Position numbers and translations under genes: made by a program. The notes beneath the pieces are model-generated. The model saw nothing but the letters and a program-made list of their open reading frames with translations. It was not told the origin of the DNA and made no database searches. Source: Candidatus Daviesbacteria bacterium (GTDB lineage Bacteria > Patescibacteriota > Microgenomatia > Daviesbacterales > UBA10151). From it: a stretch of 64,000 bases of DNA. Shown here piece after piece: positions 31,464-58,172 of this stretch. Each line of letters opens with the position of its first letter. Within the stretch, counting starts at the first letter, position 1. The stretch covers positions 7,878 to 71,877 of the forward strand of contig JACOXD010000006.1 of NCBI GenBank assembly GCA_016176465.1. Direction: 5' to 3'.

Positions 31464-32942
31464 ATGCTCGCTATTTTTAAACCTTTTTTAATATTTTTAT
31501 TTTTCCCAATTTATCTACTTTTAGAAAATTTTATCTTTAGAAAAGATGAGCTTAAAAGGGGTTATAAAATTTTTACATCCCTACTTGCAGTTTTTATTTT
31601 ACTTCCAATTTGGATTGTAATTTATTTTAGCGCTGCTTTAATTATAGCTGGGCAACTGCATTTTTTTAAAGAGCCTGTAGCTATTGCTGGTAGCGGCTCA
31701 ATGTATCCCACTTTTCCCAAAGGAGTCGAAAAAGACCCTAAGGTTGCTGCAAAAGAGATTGTTGGAGAATACTTTGCACTACCTTATCCAACTGGGTTTA
31801 ACCTTTTTGGTAAATCTTTTTTTTCTTACCAAATTAGTCATGGGGATATTGTTATTTTTGAAAACGAAAAAGTCAAAGCTATAACTAATACAGTTTATGG
31901 CTCCCCTTCCGGTTTAATAAAAAGGGTAATTGCTCTTCCAGGAGACAGTATTGAAATAAGAGATGGGTTGGTAATACTAAACAACAAAACTTTGGAAGAA
32001 CCATACATCGCTAGAGCCAGATCTACATTTGGCGGTGAATTTTTACCTGAATGCAAAAAGTTAGTTATTCCACAGGACAAATTATTTGTGATGGGAGATA
32101 ATAGGACAGGAAGTTCTGACTCTAGGTATGATGTACAACTAATAGACTTTTCAGATATTACCCATGTAATCCCCTTTGATAACCAAAAAGGTAAGTTAGA
32201 TAAAAATTGGCGCGACAGCACAAATGATTTACTTGAAAGTTCCAAAATTCACCTTGATAAGTTTGTCTATTTGGAACTTTTAAATAAAAAAAGAGTGGAA
32301 AATGGACTAAAGCCACTTAAATACCAACCTAAACTAGAATTATCTGCCAAATTACGTGGAGAGATAATGCTAAGGTTTGATGATTTCTCATTTGAAGCCT
32401 CAAGGAGTGGCTATACAATGGAAAAAGCACTCCAAGATGTTTCATATTCCAATATCACTTGGGGAGAAATTCCCACTCAAGGGTATTTTGAGGCAGAGGA
32501 GTTAATTGAAGGATTATTTGAATTTCCTGAAGGTAAAAAGTTTTTACTAAACCCAGATGATGAGGAGTTTGGAATTGCGCAAGTGCCAGGAGAGTTAAAT
32601 GGCTGTCCCACTCAAGTAATAGTCCAACATTTTGCCGGGTATATACCCCCTAATTATTCCGCGAAGGATATAGAGTCCTGGAAATCTCTTCTTAAAAACT
32701 TGCAGGAGATTAAAGCAGGTTGGCAAAACTTAAAAGACTTGGAAAAGTTTTATCAGGAAGAAAAGATTGATGTTGATAGAATAAATGAAATCATTCAATT
32801 TAGGTTAAATAATGTACCCAGAATAATTTCCCGTATGGAAGCAAATGAATGGCTGACTAAAGAAGAGCTTGACTATATTAAACAGGATAAAAATCTTAGC
32901 GAGGAACAAAATCAAATAGCAGACAAATTAAATAAAAGGTAG
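31464..32942 (+). CDS. lepB: signal peptidase I with long C-terminal extension
   Basis: Catalytic Ser region GSGSMYPTF, KRVIALPGDSIEIRDG and GDNRTGSSDSRYD boxes. An extra ~270 C-terminal residues. Confidence 0.8.
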   Translation: MLAIFKPFLIFLFFPIYLLLENFIFRKDELKRGYKIFTSLLAVFILLPIWIVIYFSAALIIAGQLHFFKEPVAIAGSGSMYPTFPKGVEKDPKVAAKEIVGEYFALPYPTGFNLFGKSFFSYQISHGDIVIFENEKVKAITNTVYGSPSGLIKRVIALPGDSIEIRDGLVILNNKTLEEPYIARARSTFGGEFLPECKKLVIPQDKLFVMGDNRTGSSDSRYDVQLIDFSDITHVIPFDNQKGKLDKNWRDSTNDLLESSKIHLDKFVYLELLNKKRVENGLKPLKYQPKLELSAKLRGEIMLRFDDFSFEASRSGYTMEKALQDVSYSNITWGEIPTQGYFEAEELIEGLFEFPEGKKFLLNPDDEEFGIAQVPGELNGCPTQVIVQHFAGYIPPNYSAKDIESWKSLLKNLQEIKAGWQNLKDLEKFYQEEKIDVDRINEIIQFRLNNVPRIISRMEANEWLTKEELDYIKQDKNLSEEQNQIADKLNKR

Positions 32943-36943: not shown

Positions 36944-36997
36944 TTTGACAATATAGTTTTATAAAGTATATGCTCAAATGAGAGAGAATTTCTGCTC

Positions 36998-38884
36998 ATG
37001 GGTAAAGCTAAACTGTTTTTAATTCTAACTTTTTTTCTATTATTTTTTCTCCTAACACCCAAGGTTTATGGACAAGGAGGTTCAGGTGGAGTTATTAAAC
37101 AAGAGGATACTCCATGTCCCAATACACCAGTAATCGGGGATGCATGTGAATGGGTTGACGACAATATAATCACACCTGTTAATCAATGGGGTTGTGATAA
37201 TTTTGGGAAATGCAGTGACGAAGGACGAGACCCTATCACCCCAACTCCAGAAGAACCAAACCCCACTAATCAATCAGCTACATCAGAGGGCGATGATCCC
37301 CCTCCTAATTGCGGAATCGTACAATTTGTATGTAATGCGGTAGAACCAATAGTTGATGCAGGCGAGTCAGCAGTTGAAGCTGGAGGGGGTGTTGTTGAAA
37401 CAGTTAAAACTGCTGTTGGTGACGCAGTTACCAGTGTTACATGCGGAGTAGCTGGAGTTTGGTGTGGAGACGACAACTCCTCATCCGCTCAAGGAAGTGA
37501 TCAAGAAACTAGTACTAATGATGAAGATGGTAATAGTAATCTTCCAGTTCCTGCTGATAGGGGTAACAGGAATGATGAAGATAATGACCGTATTCCGGAT
37601 GATGAAGATGTTTGTCCTTACAGAGCAGGGCCTAGAAGAAATGTAAATAATGGGTGTCCTATTAGTACAACTGGGCAAGGCCAAGAAGACCAAGGACAGA
37701 GTGCTACCTCTGATTGTAATACACTTGGATGTCCGCAAGGCAAACAATGTCTTCCACTTAGCATTGTAGGAGGTGATCCAAACACTTTTAGATGTATACT
37801 TAAAGCAGCTTTAAATGATTGTAGGACTAAGGGTTGTCCAGATCCAGTAAATCAAGTATGTACTCAAATAGGAACTAGTGGAGCTTGGGGTTGCCCAGGG
37901 ATTAACACGCCTGGAGCTGGAGTCAAAAATGAAACTCCTTATAATCCAGCTAATGATCGAGATGGTGATGGAATACCAAATATTAATGGGGAGGATGTTT
38001 GTCCAGATTCCAGGGGACCTAGAAGGGCTGTTAGAAACGGCTGTCCAGCTGGGCCTGATCCTGACTTTGAAGAAGCAGATTGTAATGGTAGGTGTGGAAT
38101 CAATGATATGGTAAACTTTCCGCGCTGTCTCTATGTCGCCGCAGGATTATATGCGTGTTATGCTAATGACCCATCAGCTGAGGTTCCCTCACGGACAAGA
38201 GAAGTAGAAAATCAAGCAACTATAGCAACCAATGGGGAGTATCGACCTGGTCAATCCACGCAGTTCACCCCTCCCTCTAATCCTAATTTATCTGATGTAC
38301 CTTGTATATACACAGATCTAAAAGGAGGAGAAAATAAGTGTTATATAGGAAAATGTAGAAAAGATCACTTGGAAGATTGTACTTTTAATAATTGGTGTGA
38401 ATACTCACCTGATATTCATAGACAAATAGATTGTCCAAGCAGACCCCAGGTATGTATTTATCCTCAGAAAGAAACAACTGGGGATGCTTGTTATTATGGA
38501 ATCTGTGAAGGTGATAATTGTAAGCAGGGACAAGTATCAGACCAATGTGCGTATATGGGAGGGTTGGGACAAAAATTAAATAGCTGCCCAACTGGCTCTA
38601 CTACTTCTGCCTCTAGTCAAGGATCAGGAGGTAGTAAAGGGTTAAGAGAGATCTGGATATATGAACAGCCTTTTTCAAATGATATTCCTGTTAAGAAACT
38701 CCTCCCTTCAGATTGTAATTTTATTTCAGGCAATCTATTATGTAACTACAAATTCAGGGATAATATAAAAGAACCAAAAACTATTTATGTTAGATTTATA
38801 TCTAATGAAAAAGATCTCAATACTCCAGATCCAGATGACTATAAATTTAAAGATGCAGAGCCATTAAGAATTGATAGGAACTAG
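36998..38884 (+). CDS. secreted Cys-rich protein with thrombospondin type-3-like Ca-binding repeats and a C-terminal Cys-rich module shared with ORF 43701
   Basis: Signal peptide. Two DxDxDGIPDxxDVCP...GPRRxVxNGCP units. C-terminal PCIYTDLKGGENKCYIGKC...QIDCP...VCIYPQ...CYYGICEG...GQKLNSCP. Confidence 0.6.
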   Translation: MGKAKLFLILTFFLLFFLLTPKVYGQGGSGGVIKQEDTPCPNTPVIGDACEWVDDNIITPVNQWGCDNFGKCSDEGRDPITPTPEEPNPTNQSATSEGDDPPPNCGIVQFVCNAVEPIVDAGESAVEAGGGVVETVKTAVGDAVTSVTCGVAGVWCGDDNSSSAQGSDQETSTNDEDGNSNLPVPADRGNRNDEDNDRIPDDEDVCPYRAGPRRNVNNGCPISTTGQGQEDQGQSATSDCNTLGCPQGKQCLPLSIVGGDPNTFRCILKAALNDCRTKGCPDPVNQVCTQIGTSGAWGCPGINTPGAGVKNETPYNPANDRDGDGIPNINGEDVCPDSRGPRRAVRNGCPAGPDPDFEEADCNGRCGINDMVNFPRCLYVAAGLYACYANDPSAEVPSRTREVENQATIATNGEYRPGQSTQFTPPSNPNLSDVPCIYTDLKGGENKCYIGKCRKDHLEDCTFNNWCEYSPDIHRQIDCPSRPQVCIYPQKETTGDACYYGICEGDNCKQGQVSDQCAYMGGLGQKLNSCPTGSTTSASSQGSGGSKGLREIWIYEQPFSNDIPVKKLLPSDCNFISGNLLCNYKFRDNIKEPKTIYVRFISNEKDLNTPDPDDYKFKDAEPLRIDRN

Positions 38885-38916
38885 ACTATTTTAAAAAAAT
38901 AAGATAATCTAAATTT

Positions 38917-40110
38917 ATGACCCTTTTAGAAAAAATCAGAAATTCTCAAATAGGACAGTTACTAGATAGAAAAAATTTTAAAAACTTAGTTATTGTTGTA
39001 ATTTTACTCCTGCTTTTACCTATTGCCTTATTTTTAATCTCTCAGCAAGCCAAGTATAAATCACAAGCAGCAACAGCAGGAGTGCAAGTTGCAAGAGATA
39101 ATCGAATACAAAAAGATAGTAATCCTCCAGTGGCTTTAGGTGATGAGATTGGTCTAATTTTAACTTCTCCTTTTGATGTGCCTGGAGGCAATCAAGCAGG
39201 TGGACAACCAGTAAGTTCACAGACCCAATCAGGATTGGATGCAGCTAAAATAGCTAGGTGTGAAGCAATCCCTCATTGTAGTGGTGCCAACTGTACTTTT
39301 GAGGTTAAGTTTTATAAAAACGGTCAAAAACAATCTTCTGGCTACGAAATAGCTTGGGAAGCTAATGCAGGGGATGCAAGATTTACCAAACAAGATCCTT
39401 CTAAGCCTGCTGGAAGCTGTAACAAAGACCATCCTGAAAATTGTATTCCTGAAAGTGGGGATCCAAAAGCAATTTCTGGCTGGTTATCTTTAACAACTCC
39501 TAATGATAAAGGTGATGTTGCTACTGATTCCAAGGTATCTATTGACTATGGTAATGCTGCTGAGGGGCCTTATACAGCTAAATTTAATATAAGAACCAAT
39601 GATGACCCAGGTTTATTTGCCTCTTGCCAAGTAAGGGTTTTGAGCCCAGGAGGTATAGCTTCAGGAACAGGAGCTGATATTGGTTATAACTGCTCCAGAG
39701 CCTGCAATGGACAAATTAGGGTTCATGTATTTGAAGATCTAAATGGGAATAAGAAGTTAGACAATGACCCCTCTATAGATGATGTATTAAATGGGGCAAA
39801 AGTAAAAATTGTCAGCACAGATGATTCTAGGGACCACGTAGAGATTACCAGGATTACCCAAGATAGAGGAAGAGCTTACTTTGACTGTATTCCAGCCAAA
39901 CAAGTTTCACTAAAACCAAATTGTATACCAAATGATAAAGACGACTGTACTACAAATGATGGTATAAAATATAGTGTAACTTTGCAATCAGTTCCTTCAG
40001 GCCACTCACTTCCTTCTGTAAATGTAAGCACCTCTCCTAACTTAGATTCCTGCAATGATACAGATGATGTTAACTTCCCTTTACCACCCAGCTTCGGGGC
40101 CAACCGTTAA
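38917..40110 (+). CDS. secreted/anchored hypothetical protein
   Basis: 397 aa with N-terminal signal-anchor. Cys-containing extracellular region. Confidence 0.5.
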   Translation: MTLLEKIRNSQIGQLLDRKNFKNLVIVVILLLLLPIALFLISQQAKYKSQAATAGVQVARDNRIQKDSNPPVALGDEIGLILTSPFDVPGGNQAGGQPVSSQTQSGLDAAKIARCEAIPHCSGANCTFEVKFYKNGQKQSSGYEIAWEANAGDARFTKQDPSKPAGSCNKDHPENCIPESGDPKAISGWLSLTTPNDKGDVATDSKVSIDYGNAAEGPYTAKFNIRTNDDPGLFASCQVRVLSPGGIASGTGADIGYNCSRACNGQIRVHVFEDLNGNKKLDNDPSIDDVLNGAKVKIVSTDDSRDHVEITRITQDRGRAYFDCIPAKQVSLKPNCIPNDKDDCTTNDGIKYSVTLQSVPSGHSLPSVNVSTSPNLDSCNDTDDVNFPLPPSFGANR

Positions 40111-40160
40111 GATTGACTAAACCCCTAACTACCTATTAAGTAAGATATTGAGATAGTGTG
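40109..40160 (+). promoter_or_regulatory. repeated promoter motif (attgactaa...ta(t)tcta), copy 1 of 3
   Basis: TTGACT -35-like box. Related sequences at 40463 and 41345. Confidence 0.4.
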
Positions 40161-40183
40161 CCTTTTTTGTTAATGTAAAGCAT

Positions 40184-40453
40184 ATGTTAACTGTTGATGA
40201 TATTAAAAAATTAGCTGAGGTTTTTGTTACTAAAGAAGAGTTAAAGCAGGAAGTTGAAAAACTTTTAACTAGGGATGAATTTAATGAGAAATATGACAAG
40301 ATTATGAACATGCTTGATAAAGTTTATGGTGAAGTAAAGACTATGCGAGAGGAACAAGCAGCTCACACTCAGAGACACGAGGACGTTGAAAATCGCCTAA
40401 TCAAAATAGAGACAATCCCCTCTGTTGCTCATGAACTTAAAAAGAAACTCTAA
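40184..40453 (+). CDS. small coiled-coil hypothetical protein (paralog of the 14976 ORF)
   Basis: 89 aa, heptad-rich, shared N-terminal motif. Confidence 0.4.
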   Translation: MLTVDDIKKLAEVFVTKEELKQEVEKLLTRDEFNEKYDKIMNMLDKVYGEVKTMREEQAAHTQRHEDVENRLIKIETIPSVAHELKKKL

Positions 40454-40462
40454 AAAGTTTAG

Positions 40463-40583
40463 ATAGAATTGACTAATTCCCTCTTAAGTCTTATTCTAAA
40501 GATGGACTAAAGATCTGCCACAAATGCTAATAAAGAAGATTTTGAACTCCTAAGGTCAGGAAACCCTAATATTTCCAAGGATT
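40463..40583. repeat. ~120-bp direct repeat copy A (duplicate of promoter + first ~20 codons of gene 41404)
   Basis: About 85% identical to 41345-41464. The reading frame is disrupted here. Confidence 0.7.
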
Positions 40584-40610
40584 GCATAAGTAGGTGGTAT
40601 TATTTTAATA

Positions 40611-41195
40611 ATGGTCATCTTCATTGATGAATCTGGTACTCATAAACAATCTGATCATGCAACTATTGCTTTAGTTTATGTAGAAATAACAGATTTGGAA
40701 ATCTTTGAGCAAGCTGTTGAAGGGATTGAAAAAGGGCTTGGTATTAAGTACTTCCACTGGACTGATGAAAAATGGCAAAAGAGAGAAAAATTTATTGAGC
40801 AACTTTTAAAGTTAGATTTTACTTTCAAGGTAGCCATTTTGGAAAATCCTGTTAAACTTTCCAAGGATCTAGAAGAAATATTAAAACACCTTGTGGTTGA
40901 AGAAAATATCAGGAAAATTATTCTTGATGGCAGAAAACCTAAGTGGTACAACCAACGGCTTAAAAAATTACTTAGAGATAAAGGAGTATCAGTAAAAAAG
41001 ATTGTAACAATCAGAAAAGATGAATCTAGCCCTGGAATAAGAGTAGCTGATTGTTTAGCAGGACTTGTCAGAACTTCCTTTGATAATCCAGACTCTTTAG
41101 CTTCCAAGCTATATAACAAATTGAAAAAAGCAAACAAGGTTAGATTTGAATTAACTGGTTACTCGCATAAGCAGAGCTTGCGACCTTCGGTCTAA
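40611..41195 (+). CDS. DUF3800-like protein
   Basis: N-terminal IFIDESG motif and later RVADCLAG, as in DUF3800 proteins. Bracketed by the 120-bp direct repeats. Confidence 0.5.
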   Translation: MVIFIDESGTHKQSDHATIALVYVEITDLEIFEQAVEGIEKGLGIKYFHWTDEKWQKREKFIEQLLKLDFTFKVAILENPVKLSKDLEEILKHLVVEENIRKIILDGRKPKWYNQRLKKLLRDKGVSVKKIVTIRKDESSPGIRVADCLAGLVRTSFDNPDSLASKLYNKLKKANKVRFELTGYSHKQSLRPSV

Positions 41196-41344
41196 AAAAA
41201 GCCCCGCTTAAAGCGAGGCCAGTTGTACAAGTAGTTCCAAATTGCTTGAAACTCGGCGGCTCACCGTCCTTTGTCCCTGCCAACTTGTTGTAGCTGTATG
41301 TTACCACAATTATTATATTAATGTAAAGACATATTTCTTCTTAA

Positions 41345-41464
41345 TAGATTGACTAGTCCCCATTTAAGCTTTATTCTAAAGATAGATATAAATTCTGCCT
41401 TAAATGTTAAGTAAAGAAGATTTTGAACTCCTAAGATCAGGAAATCCTAATTTATCCAAGGATT
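41345..41464. repeat. ~120-bp direct repeat copy B (native promoter/5' end of gene 41404)
   Basis: See copy A. Confidence 0.7.
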
Positions 41465-43692
41465 TTAGGAAATTAAAGTTTGTACTAATTATTTTAATAG
41501 TATTAACTTTTATAATTATTGCTACTCCTTTAGGAGTTTATTTAGTAATAGAAAATTCAAATAAAGATTCCTCTCTAGCCTCCTCCCAAAACTCTAACCT
41601 TTTATACAATACAGGAAGACAAATTTATAATTTAGGGAGTGCTGCAGCTGCTAGATTAGGACTAGCTTCATCGGATACTACCTTTACAGGGAATATTATT
41701 GCACACGAAGGCGAAGGAGGACATATATTAGCAGGGCCTCCATTATCTGATACAGGCAGATCTAATAAAGAAGATATAAAAATAAGAATTGAAGCTCCTG
41801 TAGGCACTACTAAAGTTATCTTATCTGATGCGTTTAGATTAAATTATCCTTTTCTAAACGCACAAGGCATGCCATCTTGCACTGACTCTCAAACAGGACA
41901 AAAATTAAGTAGTTGTCAGGAAATAACAAATTTTATTTATTCAGATGGTAGCACGGATGTTGACTGGAATTTAAAAAGAGGAACAAACCAAATTCAAGCT
42001 TTGTATATTATTGATAATCAGTTTGATTTAGGTAATGCCAGTACAAGTAATATCTTAAGTGTTTTTTATGATCCTGTTTGCATGGCGCAAAGATTAATTG
42101 ACAGTGAGGGAAATCCTATCTCACTTGATTATATTGATACTGATCCTGATAGATATTACAGTAGCTTATATGCAACTGAAATTTATAGCTGTAGTGAAGA
42201 AACAGGTTTTTGTGATGGTAGACTTTTATCCCCTGGTTATGCATGCCAGATTTCAAACCCTACTGAAAGGGATATAACTGGGACCATTAGAACGTGTGTA
42301 ACAAAAACACCTGGTGGATCACATCTACAAAGTATTCAATGTACTGCCAACATAAGACCTTGTAATCCACTAGAGGTAGGAGGTTCTAATGAAAGTATAC
42401 TAGACGCTCTCGTAGACAGTTTAGTCGAGGATTTAACCGTTGGAGAATACTGTTACATAGAAGGGACTGCAAATACTTATTCTGAGGATACAGGGCATAT
42501 AGTTTTAGGCGCTACAGCTGTTAGTTCAGAAACTGTCAGAGCACTTGAGCAAAGAGCCTCAAACGGACAACTTTCTCCTGAAGAATTAAGTAGATTAGAA
42601 AGAGTCAGAGCCATTCAAAGTAGACAAATTGCCCAACGCATGGGAGAAAATATAAGCGGAGGAGGCAGAGTCAAAGCCTTATTAAGAATCGCCTCAGTTG
42701 CGGTCTTAGTCCTTCCCCATATCGCTGGTATTGTTAGTAACATTCCAGGAGGGGTAACTGTTGGAGACAATATTACACCTCCAGTTATAGAGGGTATCCA
42801 ACTTTGTGAAAATGTAACTGATCCTACTCAGTTTTGTATTGATGGAGAGACTGGTGAACTATGGTTTTATCCCGCATTTCTAAATAGTTTTGGACTAGGT
42901 ATACAAAATGCTAATATAAAGCGTTTTTCACTCCCTAATATGCTCAATAGGTTTGTAAGGTATGATCCCACAGGAAGAGCAAATTTAGTAGACGAGAATG
43001 GTCGTGTCGCAATGGTGGTTGACGCAGGTTTAAAACTAAGCCGTTTACATGAAAGTGCCAATAATTTGACTGGACGAGTTTTAAAAGAAATCTTTCCTAA
43101 TAAAAATTTCCGAGTTTTATTAAATGAAGGTAGTGGAGGTGTTCTCTGGCAAGATATCGGGGAACCTTCCTTAGTTTATAAGGTAGCTTTTCCTTTAGAT
43201 GATGTGCCAAAAGATACTGATTGGGAAAACTGGTATTCAAGTTATCGTCATTCTGATGATACCTACCAACGGAACGAGGCTAAAGTAATAGCTTTATTAA
43301 ATCAATACGGTCTTACGCCTCGCTTGCATTTATTTGTTCCATCCAGCGCGAATCCTGACCCTATACCAGGAAGGGTTTTAGATACAGTGGAAATCCCAAT
43401 AAGTAGACAGACTTCCAGAGTACCTATTATTGTTATGGACTATGTAGAAATTAATGAAGATAGGTTGGATCAATTACCCGAAGAACAAAAAAGACAATGG
43501 GCGTTAAGAACGGCCCAGATATTAGAAAGTTTACGACTTTTCCCGGCGGATACTGAAATAGTTTTTGATGAAATATCAGGAACTATAAAATTTGTAGATT
43601 TAGGAGGTATGTCTGAGAAATACGATGGGTTAGTTGAACATTTTGGTTCTCTTTATGAAAGACTCAGTAGTCTGCTTCAGATTACTCCTTAA
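41404..43692 (+). CDS. large membrane-anchored extracellular protein
   Basis: 762 aa with N-terminal TM anchor. Shares the GQKLSSC motif with neighbouring Cys-rich proteins. Confidence 0.5.
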   Translation: MLSKEDFELLRSGNPNLSKDFRKLKFVLIILIVLTFIIIATPLGVYLVIENSNKDSSLASSQNSNLLYNTGRQIYNLGSAAAARLGLASSDTTFTGNIIAHEGEGGHILAGPPLSDTGRSNKEDIKIRIEAPVGTTKVILSDAFRLNYPFLNAQGMPSCTDSQTGQKLSSCQEITNFIYSDGSTDVDWNLKRGTNQIQALYIIDNQFDLGNASTSNILSVFYDPVCMAQRLIDSEGNPISLDYIDTDPDRYYSSLYATEIYSCSEETGFCDGRLLSPGYACQISNPTERDITGTIRTCVTKTPGGSHLQSIQCTANIRPCNPLEVGGSNESILDALVDSLVEDLTVGEYCYIEGTANTYSEDTGHIVLGATAVSSETVRALEQRASNGQLSPEELSRLERVRAIQSRQIAQRMGENISGGGRVKALLRIASVAVLVLPHIAGIVSNIPGGVTVGDNITPPVIEGIQLCENVTDPTQFCIDGETGELWFYPAFLNSFGLGIQNANIKRFSLPNMLNRFVRYDPTGRANLVDENGRVAMVVDAGLKLSRLHESANNLTGRVLKEIFPNKNFRVLLNEGSGGVLWQDIGEPSLVYKVAFPLDDVPKDTDWENWYSSYRHSDDTYQRNEAKVIALLNQYGLTPRLHLFVPSSANPDPIPGRVLDTVEIPISRQTSRVPIIVMDYVEINEDRLDQLPEEQKRQWALRTAQILESLRLFPADTEIVFDEISGTIKFVDLGGMSEKYDGLVEHFGSLYERLSSLLQITP

Positions 43693-43700
43693 CTAAACTA

Positions 43701-45077
43701 ATGAATCAATTTTCCCAAAAAACTATCTTTGACAATCATATTGAAGAGAACTATCCTAAGTTAGTAAGTAAAACTCAATTAATGTTAAGTATTTTATCCA
43801 AGCTAATTATACTCTCAGTAATATTGATACTTATTTTATTAGGAATCCCTTATATAGAAGGTGGAGTATTAGGCTCTGATACAGATGTACCAAGTACAGG
43901 TAGTGATGCATCAACCATTCTCGAACAAATCAACAAGAGAAATGAGGCACCATCATCGAATCAAGGCTGGGAATTAGATTCTGCTGAAGGTCCTTGGCAA
44001 ATTTGGAAATCGAGCGAAAGAATATTACTTTGGGACCAAAGAAGTAACCATAGAGCAGTAGTTATTCGACGTACTCCTAATAACTGGGAAAGTTTAATGC
44101 TATTAAGGAGTGTCCTTAATCAGCAAATACCAGTAGGTACACAAGGTTTATTAAAATTTAATATTGCTCCTCCTGGTGATCCTGAACCACCCCCTTTTTC
44201 AACTGTTACTACTAACGAATTCTCTAATAAAGCCTGTGTTTACTCCCAGCTCGATAATGGTATAGAAAATTGTTATTGGGGAAATTGTAAAGATTCTTCT
44301 AAAAATTGTGGGAGTACTGTTAATGATAATTGTACATATATCCCTGGTAAATCTTCTGGAGAAAAATTATCTTCCTGTCCAGTAGGAGATATCTCTAACT
44401 TAACTCCTTCAAACTATACTATTACTGATCTCTCCTTTAACCCCCCTTGTATCTACTCTGAAGGAGAGAATAAATGTTTTGTAGGAAGGTGTGAGGACAG
44501 TTTAGGAAGGGGTTGTTCATTTAGCAATAATTGTAAATATAATCAAGCTACTCATCAGCAGATAGATTGTCCAGGAAGTGGGGGTAATGTAGATATCTCA
44601 GGTAATGTTTGTATCTATCCTCAAGCAGGAGCTAGTGGTACCTCTTGTTACTATGGAGTGTGTACTAAAGAAGCAGAAGCACAGGGTAAATGTAAACCAT
44701 ATACTGTATCAGAAGGATGTATCTACTCTTCAGGTTTTGGACAAAAACTAAACTCTTGTCCTGCATCAGGGAGTTTAATAGCTAACCCCTCATTGCTGGA
44801 GAGGGCTGCTGGGTTGCTTGGGCTAGGAAGTAATAAATATTTAGTAAAAATAGAAATAGATGATGATCCTAACTTTATAAATGTTTCTTCTGATAATATA
44901 TATAAGGGAGAAAAATTAAATAGTTTAAGAAAAGAGGGTGGAAGTATAATTATTCCAAGCTTTAAACTATCTCCAGCATCTCAAGAGAATAGACAAATAT
45001 GTGTAAGATATACCTCTAATTTAGGAGATACTAATTCTCCACCATGTATATCTATTAGGAAAACTCCTGAACTTTAA
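43701..45077 (+). CDS. membrane-anchored Cys-rich protein with two copies of the CxY...ENKC[YF]xGxC...GQKLNSCP module
   Basis: Paralogous to the C-terminus of ORF 36998. The two C-termini align over about 120 aa with conserved Cys spacing. Confidence 0.55.
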   Translation: MNQFSQKTIFDNHIEENYPKLVSKTQLMLSILSKLIILSVILILILLGIPYIEGGVLGSDTDVPSTGSDASTILEQINKRNEAPSSNQGWELDSAEGPWQIWKSSERILLWDQRSNHRAVVIRRTPNNWESLMLLRSVLNQQIPVGTQGLLKFNIAPPGDPEPPPFSTVTTNEFSNKACVYSQLDNGIENCYWGNCKDSSKNCGSTVNDNCTYIPGKSSGEKLSSCPVGDISNLTPSNYTITDLSFNPPCIYSEGENKCFVGRCEDSLGRGCSFSNNCKYNQATHQQIDCPGSGGNVDISGNVCIYPQAGASGTSCYYGVCTKEAEAQGKCKPYTVSEGCIYSSGFGQKLNSCPASGSLIANPSLLERAAGLLGLGSNKYLVKIEIDDDPNFINVSSDNIYKGEKLNSLRKEGGSIIIPSFKLSPASQENRQICVRYTSNLGDTNSPPCISIRKTPEL

Positions 45078-57293: not shown

Positions 57294-58172
57294 ATGCTGC
57301 ATGTAAATCTATCCTGGGAATTTCTACAAAATGGGTTTTTTCAAAATAGAAAGGCTTTAATAGGGATTTTTGTTGGACTTATCATCGCCATACCTACCCT
57401 AACCTTTCTTCTTAAAACAAGAGTAGGTTTTCAGTCTCAAGCTTCAACAGATCAACCATATAATCAAACAGTAACTGATAAAACTAAAGATAAAAAAGGT
57501 TTATCGCTTGAGGATTTAACCAAAGACACTAAAGGGGCAACAGATTCAGCTGAAATTACCCCTAAAGTAGGCTTTGGACCAACTCTAAATTTTAAAATTC
57601 AGCTTCAAGGCAGGCCAAAATCTGATCAATCCACCTCCCTTTTTATTGGTTTGGCAGAGGGGGATATCAAGGTAAACCCACCTTATCTTTTAACCTTTAC
57701 CATAGATATAGATAAAACAGGGATTTTTGAAGGGTTATCCTTAGCAGGATTAACAGTTGGAAGTAAATATAGTGCTTACTTAAAAGGAACTGCACAAATT
57801 GCATCCTCATCCACATTTACCATGGGAGGTGCCACTAATATATTAAATTCTAATAATCCCATTTTATTAACCACTGGGGATTTAAATGAAGATAATACCA
57901 TAGATAGTTTGGATTACAACATTGCCAAAGCAGCTATGGGCAAAACCTCTAAATCCCCAAACTGGAACGGAGTTATAGACTTTAACCTGGATAGAGTTAT
58001 TAATAATCTAGATCTATCTATCATTGTTAAAAATATGAGTAAAACAGGCGCGGGTGATTTATATATTTCTAAAGTTTCCAGCCAATCTGGTATCTTAACT
58101 CCAAGTACAGGTTCAACTCCTAATGAGCTACCTACTCCTAGGGGTGGCTATTGGCTCTGGGTTCCAGAGTAA
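57294..58172 (+). CDS. secreted protein with C-terminal dockerin-like Ca-binding repeat pair
   Basis: N-terminal TM/signal. TGDLNEDNTIDSLDYNIAKAAMGK and GVIDFNLDRVINNLDLSIIVKNM resemble the duplicated dockerin type-I segment. Confidence 0.5.
   Translation: MLHVNLSWEFLQNGFFQNRKALIGIFVGLIIAIPTLTFLLKTRVGFQSQASTDQPYNQTVTDKTKDKKGLSLEDLTKDTKGATDSAEITPKVGFGPTLNFKIQLQGRPKSDQSTSLFIGLAEGDIKVNPPYLLTFTIDIDKTGIFEGLSLAGLTVGSKYSAYLKGTAQIASSSTFTMGGATNILNSNNPILLTTGDLNEDNTIDSLDYNIAKAAMGKTSKSPNWNGVIDFNLDRVINNLDLSIIVKNMSKTGAGDLYISKVSSQSGILTPSTGSTPNELPTPRGGYWLWVPE

What the first reader, a model, noticed from the sequence alone, without database searches (positions are those of the whole stretch)
36998..45077. 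Island of paralogous secreted Cys-rich surface proteins sharing a novel ~50-aa cysteine module
ORFs 36998, 38917, 41404 and 43701 all begin with a signal peptide or TM anchor and have large extracellular regions. ORF 36998 (C-terminus) and ORF 43701 (at least two copies) share a module with fixed Cys spacing: PCIY..(G)ENKC[YF][IV]G[KR]C..D.L..C.F.N.C.Y....H.QIDCP....VCIYPQ....CYYG[IV]C....GQKLNSCP. The GQKL[SN]SC signature also appears in ORF 41404. ORF 36998 additionally has two thrombospondin type-3-like Ca-binding repeats (DxDxDGIPD..DVCP...GPRRxVxNGCP), which are rare in bacteria. Together with the adjacent glycoside hydrolases, type IV pilin and dockerin protein, this looks like a diversifying adhesin/host-interaction locus. 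Such a locus would be expected for an episymbiotic CPR-type cell. The Cys module may be an undescribed domain family.
Basis: partly seen in the sequence, partly recalled or inferred. Interest (0 to 1): 0.75.

Follow-up and report, generated by a model that had tools for sequence, protein, structure and literature searches.

The report
Orphan six-cysteine repeat in surface proteins
Two cell-surface proteins of an uncultured Daviesbacteria (CPR) bacterium end in the same array of about 50-residue six-cysteine repeats, which match no described domain and occur in only one other protein among about 15 billion; the repeat is real and new at sequence level, but it is a tiny lineage-specific family of unknown function, not a four-gene paralogue island.

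Summary
The genes are Ca. Daviesbacteria HYS91_02620-02645, all annotated as hypothetical proteins.

- **Homology:** only ORF 36998 (A) and ORF 43701 (D) are homologous (blastp E 1e-32).
- **Shared cassette:** tandem 45-54-aa six-Cys modules, two in A and three in D, followed by a divergent tail of about 85 aa.
- **ORF 38917 (B) and ORF 41404 (C):** they are not paralogues of A or D. C shares only the short G[QE]KL[NS]S motif.
- **Database matches:** Pfam, NCBIfam, PDB sequences, PADLOC and PHROGs give no match to the module.
- **Distribution:** a profile search of 1.84 billion representatives found one further real member. It is a 961-aa protein in a syntenic locus of a related genome, built from a C-like N-terminal half and a D-like C-terminal half.
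- **Disulfide evidence:** every protein has an even Cys count, Cys are gained or lost in pairs, and all have N-terminal export signals. This points to extracytoplasmic disulfide-stapled repeats.
- **TSP3 repeats:** A's two repeats are genuine bacterial OmpA-type Ca-binding TSP3 repeats (E 2.5e-7 to PDB 5WTL). They are not a rarity in bacteria.
- **Structure:** both AlphaFold2 models had low confidence, so the fold and disulfide map remain open.

The most likely role is a rigid surface stalk or adhesion cassette. This is inferred, not shown. Interest is modest.

The parts
36998..38884 (+). ORF A (628 aa, MBI2011639.1). Predicted secreted protein with 38 Cys (6.1%). Order of features: signal peptide, Cys-pair-rich N-terminal region, TSP3 repeat, two 4-Cys units, TSP3 repeat, modules beta and gamma, tail.
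   Evidence: promoter-like TTGACA-18-TATGCT at 36945-36974
36998..37072 (+). Predicted Sec signal peptide of A (MGKAK, hydrophobic core, VYG|QG)
   Evidence: Hydropathy peak 2.16 at aa 6-24. The cleavage site is read from the sequence by the -3/-1 rule. No dedicated predictor was available.
37565..37660 (+). TSP3-type Ca-binding repeat 1 of A (DEDNDRIPDDEDVCPYRAGPRRNVNNGCP)
   Evidence: Pfam TSP_3 17.2 bits, below the gathering score of 25. Aligns to repeats of OmpA 5WTL.
37949..38050 (+). TSP3-type Ca-binding repeat 2 of A (DRDGDGIPNINGEDVCPDSRGPRRAVRNGCP)
   Evidence: phmmer against 5wtl_A, E 2.5e-7 for the segment; best stretch covers query residues 137-172
38297..38440 (+). A module 1 (type beta, aa 434-481): C-IY-x9-C-YIGK-C-x7-C-x5-C-EY-x9-C-P
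   Evidence: Module HMM 73.7 bits; z = 20 against D module 2
38447..38593 (+). A module 2 (type gamma, aa 484-532), ending in GQKLNSCP
   Evidence: Module HMM 74.4 bits; z = 20 against D module 3
38630..38881 (+). C-terminal tail of A (about 85 aa, one Cys pair), shared with D
   Evidence: 30% identity to the D tail. Included in the blastp high-scoring alignment. AF2 pLDDT for the equivalent D tail is below 40.
38917..40110 (+). ORF B (397 aa, 12 Cys). Signal-anchored protein, not homologous to A or D. It is the conserved downstream partner gene: its orthologue follows the module protein in L002.
   Evidence: (E 3.6e-62 to L002 9916-11088)
41404..43692 (+). ORF C (762 aa, 12 Cys). N-terminal anchor and a second hydrophobic segment at aa 423-447. 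Not a module protein. Residues 257-354 resemble residues 107-204 of the L002 fusion protein.
41896..41916 (+). GQKLSSC motif of C, inside a C-x11-C loop. This is the only element shared with the modules.
   Evidence: repeat family D4
43701..45077 (+). ORF D (458 aa, 20 Cys, MBI2011644.1). Order of features: signal anchor at aa 31-49, linker, modules alpha, beta and gamma, tail. Starts 8 nt after C.
44229..44384 (+). D module 1 (type alpha, aa 177-228, ending in GEKLSSCP). The most conserved unit.
   Evidence: 87% aa identity to the L002 protein over this module and its linker, against 48-51% for beta and gamma and 26% for the tail. Up to 89% nt identity per 150 nt, against a GH1 orthologue mean of 60%.
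44442..44576 (+). D module 2 (type beta, aa 248-292)
   Evidence: 63.1 bits
44604..44765 (+). D module 3 (type gamma, aa 302-355, ending in GQKLNSCP)
   Evidence: 68.0 bits
44814..45074 (+). C-terminal tail of D (about 87 aa; contains GEKLNSL)
40468..41464 (.). Interruption of the island, not part of the surface-protein set. It comprises the DUF3800 gene (40611-41195, +) and a DUF3800-II sRNA (41217-41291, -), bracketed by a 116-nt direct repeat (40468-40583 and 41348-41464).

Best explanation
A and D are extracytoplasmic proteins of a Ca. Daviesbacteria cell. A is secreted through a cleavable signal peptide, and D is held by an N-terminal membrane anchor. Both end in the same cassette: tandem six-cysteine modules of about 45-54 aa, in a fixed order of alpha-beta-gamma (A lacks alpha), followed by a divergent beta-rich tail of about 85 aa.

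The cysteines most likely form three intramodule disulfides, and C3-C4 is probably one of the pairs. Each module would then be a disulfide-stapled, beta-hairpin-based bead, and the array would form a stiff rod projecting from the membrane. In A, two Ca-binding TSP3 repeats and further local Cys pairs extend the same 'beads on a string' design.

The cassette is attached to unrelated N-terminal parts in A, D and the 961-aa L002 protein. It therefore behaves as a portable surface module. I think it is most likely a presentation stalk or adhesion/recognition element of the cell envelope, working with the conserved neighbour B and, for D, with C (a fusion of the two exists elsewhere).

Shown: homology, repeat structure, export signals by hydropathy, the paired behaviour of Cys, the TSP3 repeats, synteny and narrow distribution. 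Inferred: the disulfides, the rod shape, and the adhesion or host-contact role.
For: **Homology and repeats**
- A and D are homologous over the modules and tail (E 1e-32).
- There are 2 and 3 module copies at 63-74 bits each, with pairwise z up to 39.

**Export signals and cysteine behaviour**
- All four proteins have N-terminal hydrophobic signals.
- A, D and B are the three most Cys-rich ORFs of the window, at 6.1, 4.3 and 3.0% against a median of 0.4%.
- Every protein has an even Cys count: 38, 12, 12 and 20, and 34 in P0003.
- Cys are gained or lost in pairs. Module 2 of P0003 lacks C3 and C4 together.
- The B-specific insertions SCNKDHPENC and NCIPNDKDDC each bring their own Cys pair.

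**TSP3 repeats**
- A's repeats match bacterial OmpA TSP3 repeats (E 2.5e-7).
- The paper on that structure reports intra-repeat disulfide-dependent Ca binding (Dai et al. 2017, cited in PMC12045341).

**Structure model**
- AF2 places beta-hairpins at C1-IY...C2-YxGxC3 in each module, but with pLDDT of only 55-73.

**Synteny and modularity**
- Synteny is conserved: pilin, GH1, membrane protein, GH5, module protein, then B, in both the window and L002.
- The cassette sits on different N-terminal parts. P0003 combines a C-like N-terminal half (E 1e-4) with a D-like C-terminal half (50% identity, E 1.5e-53).

**Precedents**
- Large Cys-rich extracellular proteins of CPR Peregrinibacteria have been proposed to act in attachment (PMC4736985).
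- The Cys-rich beta-hairpin stalk of Myxococcus TraA is described as a presentation stalk (PMC12045341).
Against: - There is no experimental or structural support. Both AF2 models are low-confidence (mean pLDDT 48.5 and 47.3), and fold searches returned nothing with E <= 0.001.
- No thiol-disulfide oxidoreductase turned up among the 48 window ORFs scanned with Pfam.
- There is no recognised cell-wall anchor on secreted A. No LPXTG motif is visible in the sequence, and no anchoring domain was found by Pfam or NCBIfam.
- Only three family members exist, so selection, variation and co-evolution cannot be measured.
- The neighbourhood argument (pilin, GH genes) is circumstantial.
- Signal and TM calls rest on hydropathy only.
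Confidence: 0.5

Rival explanations
1. The six-Cys modules are carbohydrate-binding modules, analogous to small disulfide-rich lectin or chitin-binding domains. They would tether the proteins to a polysaccharide (host wall, own wall or substrate) and work with the adjacent GH1 and GH5 enzymes.
For: - The GH1 and GH5 genes lie immediately upstream, and that order is conserved in the related locus L002.
- Invariant or near-invariant aromatic residues sit beside the cysteines (C-[IV]-Y, C-[YF]-x-G, C-x-Y), a feature I recall as typical of small Cys-rich sugar-binding domains.
- The cassette is portable across different N-terminal parts, as CBMs are.
Against: - No CBM or lectin family matches in Pfam, even at E <= 10 per module.
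- Aromatic residues next to Cys are equally expected in a purely structural hairpin.
- GH1 has no signal peptide visible in its N-terminus, so it is probably cytoplasmic, which makes a functional link weak.
- The lectin hits in the fold search have probability <= 0.04 on a low-confidence model and carry no weight.
Confidence: 0.2
2. A and D are secreted or displayed effectors, either toxin-like or antimicrobial. The disulfide-rich modules would be the stable active part (knottin- or defensin-like), used against competitors or the host.
For: - The proteins are secreted or surface-located and very Cys-rich.
- Distribution is extremely narrow and architecture is mosaic, as in polymorphic effector families.
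- The L002 homologue carries an HEFVH (HExxH-like) motif upstream of the modules (read from the sequence).
Against: - No match to any toxin, immunity or defence family.
- No small immunity-like gene is paired with A or D.
- The modules sit in an ordered tandem array with a conserved tail, which looks structural.
- D is membrane-anchored, not released.
Confidence: 0.1
3. The cysteines bind metal (Zn, Cu or Fe-S) or carry out redox chemistry, and are not structural disulfides.
For: High Cys density with fixed spacing; one module gave a weak zinc-finger-type hit (E 0.18).
Against: - The location is extracytoplasmic.
- There are no His or Asp partners and no CxxC pairs conserved in the module.
- Cys are lost or gained in pairs, and module 2 of P0003 tolerates loss of exactly two.
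- The Pfam hit is a single member at a non-significant E-value.
Confidence: 0.05
4. The shared module is a chance or compositional artefact, or the ORFs are not real genes.
For: None beyond the absence of homologues for C and D in word-indexed searches.
Against: - E 1e-32 between A and D.
- z-scores up to 39 against composition-preserving shuffles.
- An independent homologue lies in a syntenic locus of another genome, with synonymous divergence (27% of conserved codons differ) and 87% aa identity in module alpha.
- The ORFs are long and fill the region.
Confidence: 0.01

Closest known systems
Cysteine-rich repeat stalk of Myxococcus xanthus TraA (with partner TraB, which carries TSP3 repeats)
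   Same: - A surface protein built from a variable part plus a tandem Cys-rich region.
- That region is described as beta-hairpins stiffened by oxidised thiols and acting as a presentation stalk.
- It has a conserved partner protein, and Ca-binding TSP3 repeats occur in the same system (PMC12045341).
- Here too there is a variable N-terminal part, a Cys-module array, a conserved neighbour B, and TSP3 repeats in A.
   Different: - No sequence similarity was detected: no Pfam or NCBIfam Cys-rich repeat family matches.
- There is no MYXO-CTERM tag, PA14-like variable domain, OmpA domain or outer membrane context.
- Here the TSP3 repeats are in the same polypeptide as the modules.
- Anchoring is N-terminal (D) or absent (A).
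- The resemblance is in design only.
Large cysteine-rich extracellular proteins of CPR Peregrinibacteria (Anantharaman et al. 2016, PMC4736985)
   Same: - They come from CPR organisms and carry signal peptides.
- They have very high Cys content and no functional annotation.
- They were proposed to act in attachment.
   Different: - Those proteins are much larger (mean 1,655 aa) and come from a different phylum.
- They are reported to show weak similarity to Myxococcus Cys-rich repeats.
- No homology to the module here was seen in a search of 1.84 billion representatives.
Bacterial thrombospondin type 3 repeats of OmpA-family proteins (PDB 5WTL; Pfam PF02412)
   Same: - A's two repeats have the D-rich loop (DxDxDGIPDxxD) followed by C-P...G-C-P.
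- They align to each of the five 5WTL repeats (E 2.5e-7).
   Different: - There are only two repeats, they are not tandem, and the first is degenerate (DEDNDR instead of DTDGDG).
- The score is below Pfam's gathering threshold (17.2 against 25 bits).
- There is no OmpA domain.
- This concerns A's middle region, not the new module.
Eukaryotic six-Cys repeat modules (EGF-like, TNFR-type Cys-rich domains)
   Same: These are modules of about 40-50 aa with six Cys, arranged in tandem in extracellular proteins and built from small disulfide-linked hairpins (my own knowledge).
   Different: - The spacing here is C-x8-11-C-x4-C-x4-9-C-x5-8-C-x11-14-C-P, without the C-x-C of EGF.
- Only 1 of 8 modules gave a weak EGF-like hit (E 0.011).
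- No PDB sequence matches.

Membership tests
Any described Cys-rich domain family (Pfam-A 2025, NCBIfam 20.0) | Profile match at or above the curated threshold | tested here: not met
   - No family covers the modules in A or D at E <= 1.
- The 8 modules were also scanned singly at E <= 10. Only two one-off hits appeared: EGF_STAB1-2 at 0.011 and zf-CCCH_tandem at 0.18.
Any protein of known structure (PDB sequences) | Sequence similarity of the module profile to a solved chain | tested here: not met
   hmmsearch with the 8-module profile gave 0 hits at E <= 10. Full-length A, B and C gave nothing significant outside the TSP3 repeats.
[not shown]
   AF2 with a 3-sequence alignment gave mean pLDDT 48.5. 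Foldseek against PDB gave 0 hits at E <= 0.001. The model is too poor to exclude a known fold.
Thrombospondin type 3 repeat (PF02412; bacterial OmpA-type) | Asp-rich Ca-binding loop DxDxDGxxDxxD | tested here: met
   DRDGDGIPNINGED (repeat 2) and a degenerate DEDNDRIPDDED (repeat 1), both aligned to 5WTL repeats
Thrombospondin type 3 repeat (PF02412; bacterial OmpA-type) | Intra-repeat Cys pair (C-P ... G-C-P) | tested here: met
   VCPYRAGPRRNVNNGCP and VCPDSRGPRRAVRNGCP. The role of the disulfide is taken from Dai et al. 2017, as cited.
Thrombospondin type 3 repeat (PF02412; bacterial OmpA-type) | Score above Pfam's gathering threshold | tested here: not met
   17.2 bits against 25. However, phmmer of the segment against 5wtl_A gives 34.1 bits, E 2.5e-7.
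Thrombospondin type 3 repeat (PF02412; bacterial OmpA-type) | Ca2+ binding | not testable with these tools
   Needs biochemistry.
Sec-exported or membrane-anchored surface proteins | N-terminal signal peptide or signal anchor | tested here: met
   Kyte-Doolittle peaks of 2.2-3.3 within the first 50 residues of A, B, C and D. In the sequences shown there, Lys/Arg-bearing stretches precede each hydrophobic core. SignalP and DeepTMHMM were not available.
Sortase- or S-layer-anchored Gram-positive surface proteins | C-terminal LPXTG sorting signal or an SLH/cell-wall-binding domain | tested here: not met
   No LPXTG appears in the C-termini of A or D (sequences), and Pfam finds no anchoring domain.
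   - Only A-D is significant (1e-32).
- All pairs that include B or C have E >= 0.019 in a four-sequence database.
- C scores 1.4 bits on the module HMM.
- hhalign aligns 16 columns only.
Anti-phage defence or phage protein families | Match to PADLOC or PHROGs profiles | tested here: not met
   No hits for A, B, C or D.

The most novel reading that the evidence does not exclude
The alpha-beta-gamma array is a new disulfide-rich fold that forms the recognition end of a Daviesbacteria cell-contact apparatus made of A, B, C and D. On this reading the alpha module is the ligand-binding unit. It is 87% identical between two genomes whose housekeeping orthologues are about 50% identical, and its synonymous sites are also less diverged. 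It would be either held under unusually strong constraint or exchanged between co-occurring lineages. The fission or fusion of C and D would reflect a two-part receptor.
Probability: 0.15. Interest if true: 0.6.

Novelty: new variant of a known kind. Interest (0 to 1): 0.35.

Why it matters
CPR bacteria are thought to live attached to other cells, and their surface proteins are mostly unannotated. A portable, disulfide-stapled repeat cassette with one strongly constrained unit would be a concrete candidate for an attachment or recognition element in Microgenomates. It is also a small, expressible target (D residues 170-458) for structure determination and binding assays.

The result also shows how narrow such inventions can be: three proteins among about 15 billion. 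That limits its general importance, and it means bioinformatics alone will not reveal the function.

Tried and rejected
- **Word-indexed homologue searches.** D and C each found only themselves. With the 8-module alignment, only 3 candidates shared words and none was scored, so this gives no extra information.
- **Exhaustive profile search.** The two borderline hits, P0004 and P0005 (E 2.5e-4 and 8.5e-4), are highly repetitive, unrelated proteins with 4-5 summed stretches. I rejected them as noise.
- **Collection scans.** Metagenome scans for the cassette and for the B family found nothing, and the viral contig scan found nothing. These scans depend on two strict peptide patterns each, so they are weak negatives.
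- **AF2 of D170-458.** With a 3-sequence alignment, pLDDT was 48.5, and Foldseek against PDB gave nothing with E <= 0.001. No fold or disulfide map could be derived, and the tool gives no coordinates.
- **Kinase-like reading of C.** By eye the C-terminal 313 aa of C looked protein-kinase-like (GSGG...VYKV...VMDYVE...PAD...VDLGG), which would make C a receptor kinase. Pfam found nothing at E <= 5, single-sequence AF2 gave pLDDT 47.3, and Foldseek returned no kinase. The idea is unsupported and I dropped it to an untested lead.
- **Homology of C residues 105-241 to the A/D cassette.** hhalign aligned only the GQKL.SC motif (probability 3.6%). Rejected.
- **Recent transfer of module alpha.** DNA identity is high (up to 89%), but 16 of 60 conserved codons differ synonymously. 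The same-codon fraction is 73% against 53% in GH1 (Fisher p = 0.0075). The conservation is therefore mostly protein-level constraint, and a somewhat more recent shared ancestry is not excluded.
- **Strain variation.** L001, and the part of the module-protein gene held on L003, are identical to the sequences already in hand, so nothing was learned.
- **Alignment of the three tails.** It is poor. The tail of P0003 may not be homologous throughout.

Full report
**What is at the coordinates**

Four + strand ORFs fill 36998-45077:
- A, 36998-38884, 628 aa
- B, 38917-40110, 397 aa
- C, 41404-43692, 762 aa
- D, 43701-45077, 458 aa

They are Candidatus Daviesbacteria bacterium proteins MBI2011639.1, MBI2011640.1, MBI2011643.1 and MBI2011644.1 (locus tags HYS91_02620, 02625, 02640 and 02645). 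All are annotated 'hypothetical protein', and each is a singleton cluster at 90% identity.

The rest of the window is ordinary chromosome. It holds TopA, ClpB, DprA, PBP2, MreB/MreC, pyrimidine biosynthesis genes, deformylase and formyltransferase, NusG and L1.

The local neighbourhood is envelope-related. In order it reads: signal peptidase I (31464), a type IV pilin-like protein (32955), GH1 (33524), a multi-pass membrane protein (34828), a signal-anchored GH5-like protein (35924), then A and B, an 89-aa ORF, DUF3800, then C and D, then DUF5674, PBP1A (46084) and GT2 genes. A dockerin-domain protein exists, but it lies 12 kb downstream at 57294-58172.

**Checking the observation**

- **Export signals.** All four proteins start with a strongly hydrophobic segment (Kyte-Doolittle 2.2-3.3). 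In A it follows MGKAK and ends in VYG|QG, which I read as a cleavable signal peptide. In B, C and D it lies 23-30 residues in, after Lys/Arg-bearing stretches, which I read as signal anchors with the bulk of the protein outside. No dedicated predictor was available.
- **Cysteine content.** A, D and B are the three most Cys-rich ORFs of the window, at 6.1, 4.3 and 3.0% against a median of 0.4%.
- **Homology.** All-against-all blastp shows that only A and D are homologous (A407-610 vs D205-447, E 1e-32). An out-of-register second alignment (E 3e-8) betrays internal repeats. B and C are not significantly similar to A, D or each other.
- **Distribution in the window.** An HMM of the modules finds exactly these five copies in the six-frame translation of all 64 kb, at 63-74 bits each. 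C scores 1.4 bits.
- **Chance control.** Against composition-preserving shuffles, module pairs score z = 2.7-39.
- **Module types.** The pairs define three types in a fixed order. Alpha is D m1, beta is A m1 and D m2, and gamma is A m2 and D m3.
- **Tail.** A divergent tail of about 85 aa follows the array in both proteins (30% identity).
- **The short motif.** G[QE]KL[NS]S occurs five times in the window, all in A, C and D, against 0.012 expected. In C it sits in a C-x11-C loop. Profile comparison aligns nothing beyond that motif. C therefore shares a motif, not a domain.

**TSP3 repeats**

Pfam's TSP_3 model reaches only 17.2 bits, below its gathering score of 25. The middle segment of A, searched alone against PDB sequences, matches the OmpA-family protein 5WTL at E 2.5e-7. 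A's two repeats (DEDNDRIPDDEDVCPYRAGPRRNVNNGCP and DRDGDGIPNINGEDVCPDSRGPRRAVRNGCP) align to that protein's [27 protein letters not shown] repeats.

That structure is the published bacterial TSP3 example, with intra-repeat disulfide-dependent Ca binding (Dai et al. 2017, cited in PMC12045341). The repeats are therefore real, but they are the usual bacterial kind and not a rarity.

**Is the module known, and how widespread is it?**

- Nothing covers the modules in Pfam-A or NCBIfam. Scanning the eight modules singly at E <= 10 gave two unrelated one-off hits.
- PDB sequences give nothing. PADLOC and PHROGs give nothing for A-D.
- A HMMER profile of the A/D cassette was run against 1.84 billion representatives of about 15 billion proteins. 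It returned five proteins at E <= 0.001: D, A, a 961-aa protein P0003 (E 3e-13), and two repeat-driven false positives.
- A scan of one genome per GTDB species found the same single locus, L002. Two JGI metagenome scans and a viral scan found nothing.
- NCBI taxonomy lists more than 25 Daviesbacteria entries, yet the family, at HMMER sensitivity, consists of three proteins in two genomes.
- Reads or contigs of both organisms come from neighbouring accessions (SRR12113383, SRR12113384 and SRR12113430).

**The related locus**

L002 is labelled as a Gammaproteobacteria MAG. It has 33-36% GC and the same gene order as the window: pilin, GH1, membrane protein, GH5, then P0003, then a B orthologue. 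Identities to the window proteins are 45% for pilin, 53% for GH1, 46% for GH5 and 34% for B. It is therefore very probably a related CPR organism.

P0003 occupies A's slot but is built differently:
- Residues 107-204 resemble C residues 257-354 (E 1e-4).
- Residues 661-866 are 50% identical to D residues 145-365 (E 1.5e-53) and carry alpha-beta-gamma plus a tail.

The cassette is thus attached to three different N-terminal parts. The adjacent genes C and D, separated by 8 nt, are represented elsewhere by one fused protein, which is a Rosetta-stone hint that they act together. The pair 'module protein followed by B' is conserved.

**Evidence that the cysteines are disulfides**

1. The proteins carry N-terminal export signals.
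2. Cys counts are even in all five proteins: 38, 12, 12, 20 and 34.
3. Cys appear and disappear in pairs. The beta module of P0003 lacks exactly C3 and C4, which suggests a C3-C4 bond.
4. The two B-specific insertions relative to its orthologue each carry their own pair, SCNKDHPENC and NCIPNDKDDC.
5. Outside the modules, A's Cys mostly occur as close neighbours (40/50, 66/72, 105/112, 149/156, 206/220, 335/349, 573/582), as expected for a chain of small disulfide-closed loops.

**Uneven conservation**

Between D and P0003, identity differs sharply along the cassette:

| Region | aa identity |
|---|---|
| Alpha module and its linker | 87% |
| Beta module | 51% |
| Gamma module | 48% |
| Tail | 26% |

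At the DNA level the alpha block reaches 89% identity per 150 nt. The GH1 orthologues average 60%, with a maximum of 77%. Sixteen of 60 conserved codons still differ synonymously. The same-codon fraction is 73% against 53% in GH1 (Fisher p = 0.0075). The block is therefore not a very recent transfer. It is mainly under strong protein-level constraint, possibly with somewhat more recent shared ancestry. Alpha is the best candidate for a functionally critical surface.

**Structure**

AlphaFold2 on D170-458 with the three-sequence alignment gave a mean pLDDT of 48.5. The modules scored 55-73, with a beta-hairpin spanning C1-IY...C2-YxGxC3 in each, and the tail scored below 40. Foldseek against PDB gave no hit with E <= 0.001. 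The fold and the disulfide map remain open.

**Most likely mechanism**

I think A and D are disulfide-stapled, rod-like envelope proteins, and A is additionally Ca-stabilised. The module array acts as a rigid stalk or recognition cassette at the distal end of a membrane-anchored protein (D, P0003) or a secreted one (A), and it works with B and C.

The design parallels two published cases. One is the Cys-rich beta-hairpin 'presentation stalk' of Myxococcus TraA, whose partner TraB carries TSP3 repeats (PMC12045341). The other is the large Cys-rich extracellular proteins of CPR Peregrinibacteria, proposed to act in attachment (PMC4736985). No homology to either was detected. I put this at about 0.5.

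The rivals are:
- a carbohydrate-binding module linked to the conserved GH neighbours (0.2);
- a secreted Cys-rich effector (0.1);
- metal binding (0.05);
- an artefact (0.01).

**Verdict**

The 'island of paralogues' shrinks to two related proteins plus two unrelated envelope proteins, interrupted by a DUF3800/sRNA insertion. The family is tiny, and the function rests on inference. It is a new variant of a known kind (Cys-rich extracellular repeat proteins of CPR and other bacteria), of modest interest (0.35).

Noticed in passing
window 40468-41464: The DUF3800 gene (40611-41195, +; PF12686, E 1.2e-11) and a convergent DUF3800-II sRNA (41217-41291, -; RF02961, 55 bits against a gathering score of 43.2) are bracketed by a 116-nt direct repeat (40468-40583 and 41348-41464, 76-92% identity, one 1-nt indel). 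The sRNA has its own terminator-like hairpin at 41220-41200. Copy 2 of the repeat carries a TTGACT-17-TATTCT promoter-like site and the first ~20 codons of ORF C. Copy 1 is a frameshifted relic of the same 5' end and now sits upstream of DUF3800. This looks like a ~765-nt DUF3800+RNA cassette inserted into the 5' end of gene C with duplication of the target, which suggests the gene-RNA unit is mobile. The gene-RNA association itself is known (Weinberg et al. 2017, PMC5737381). DUF3800 also weakly matches the DUF3800 part of a PADLOC RT-DUF3800 defence model (E 4.7e-4)..
   Followed up: partly
L002 7024-9909 (P0003, 961 aa): The only outside homologue of the cassette is a fusion-like protein with a C-like N-terminal part and D-like modules. 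It also has two further hydrophobic segments (aa 231-249 and 335-353) and an HEFVH (HExxH-like) motif in an otherwise unmatched middle region of about 300 aa. Pfam gives no hit. A metallopeptidase domain is possible but untested..
   Followed up: partly
L002 (CAYWKL010000026.1): The contig is labelled 'uncultured Gammaproteobacteria bacterium' (binchicken MAG). It has 33-36% GC and is syntenic with this Daviesbacteria window (pilin, GH1, membrane protein, GH5, module protein, B) at 34-53% protein identity. It is probably a mis-binned or mislabelled CPR contig..
   Followed up: partly
window 42751-43689 (C residues 450-762): After a second hydrophobic segment (aa 423-447), the C-terminal 313 aa of C show, by eye, a protein-kinase-like motif order (GSGG, VYKV, E, VMDYVE, PAD, VDLGG). 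Pfam (E <= 5), single-sequence AF2 (pLDDT 47.3) and Foldseek gave no support. If the reading were right, C would be a receptor-like protein with a cytoplasmic domain, not a purely extracellular one..
   Followed up: yes
window 31464-32942: The signal peptidase I homologue (Peptidase_S26, E 4.9e-27, aa 50-232) is unusually long at 492 aa. Its C-terminal extension of about 260 aa has only a weak CAP/Cys-rich-secretory-protein-family hit (E 0.032)..
   Followed up: no
window 57294-58172: A 292-aa protein with a type I dockerin domain (PF00404, 30.7 bits against a gathering score of 22.9, aa 195-247). It lies 12 kb from the island. No cohesin partner was looked for..
   Followed up: no
window 38917-40110 and L002 9916-11088: B and its orthologue share eight invariant Cys and a strongly conserved block (SGTGADIGYxCxRxCNGQIxVH...GAKVKI...LDSCNDTDxVNF). 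No Pfam, NCBIfam or PDB match was found, and a metagenome scan found no further relatives. B appears to be a second orphan family, always downstream of the module protein..
   Followed up: partly
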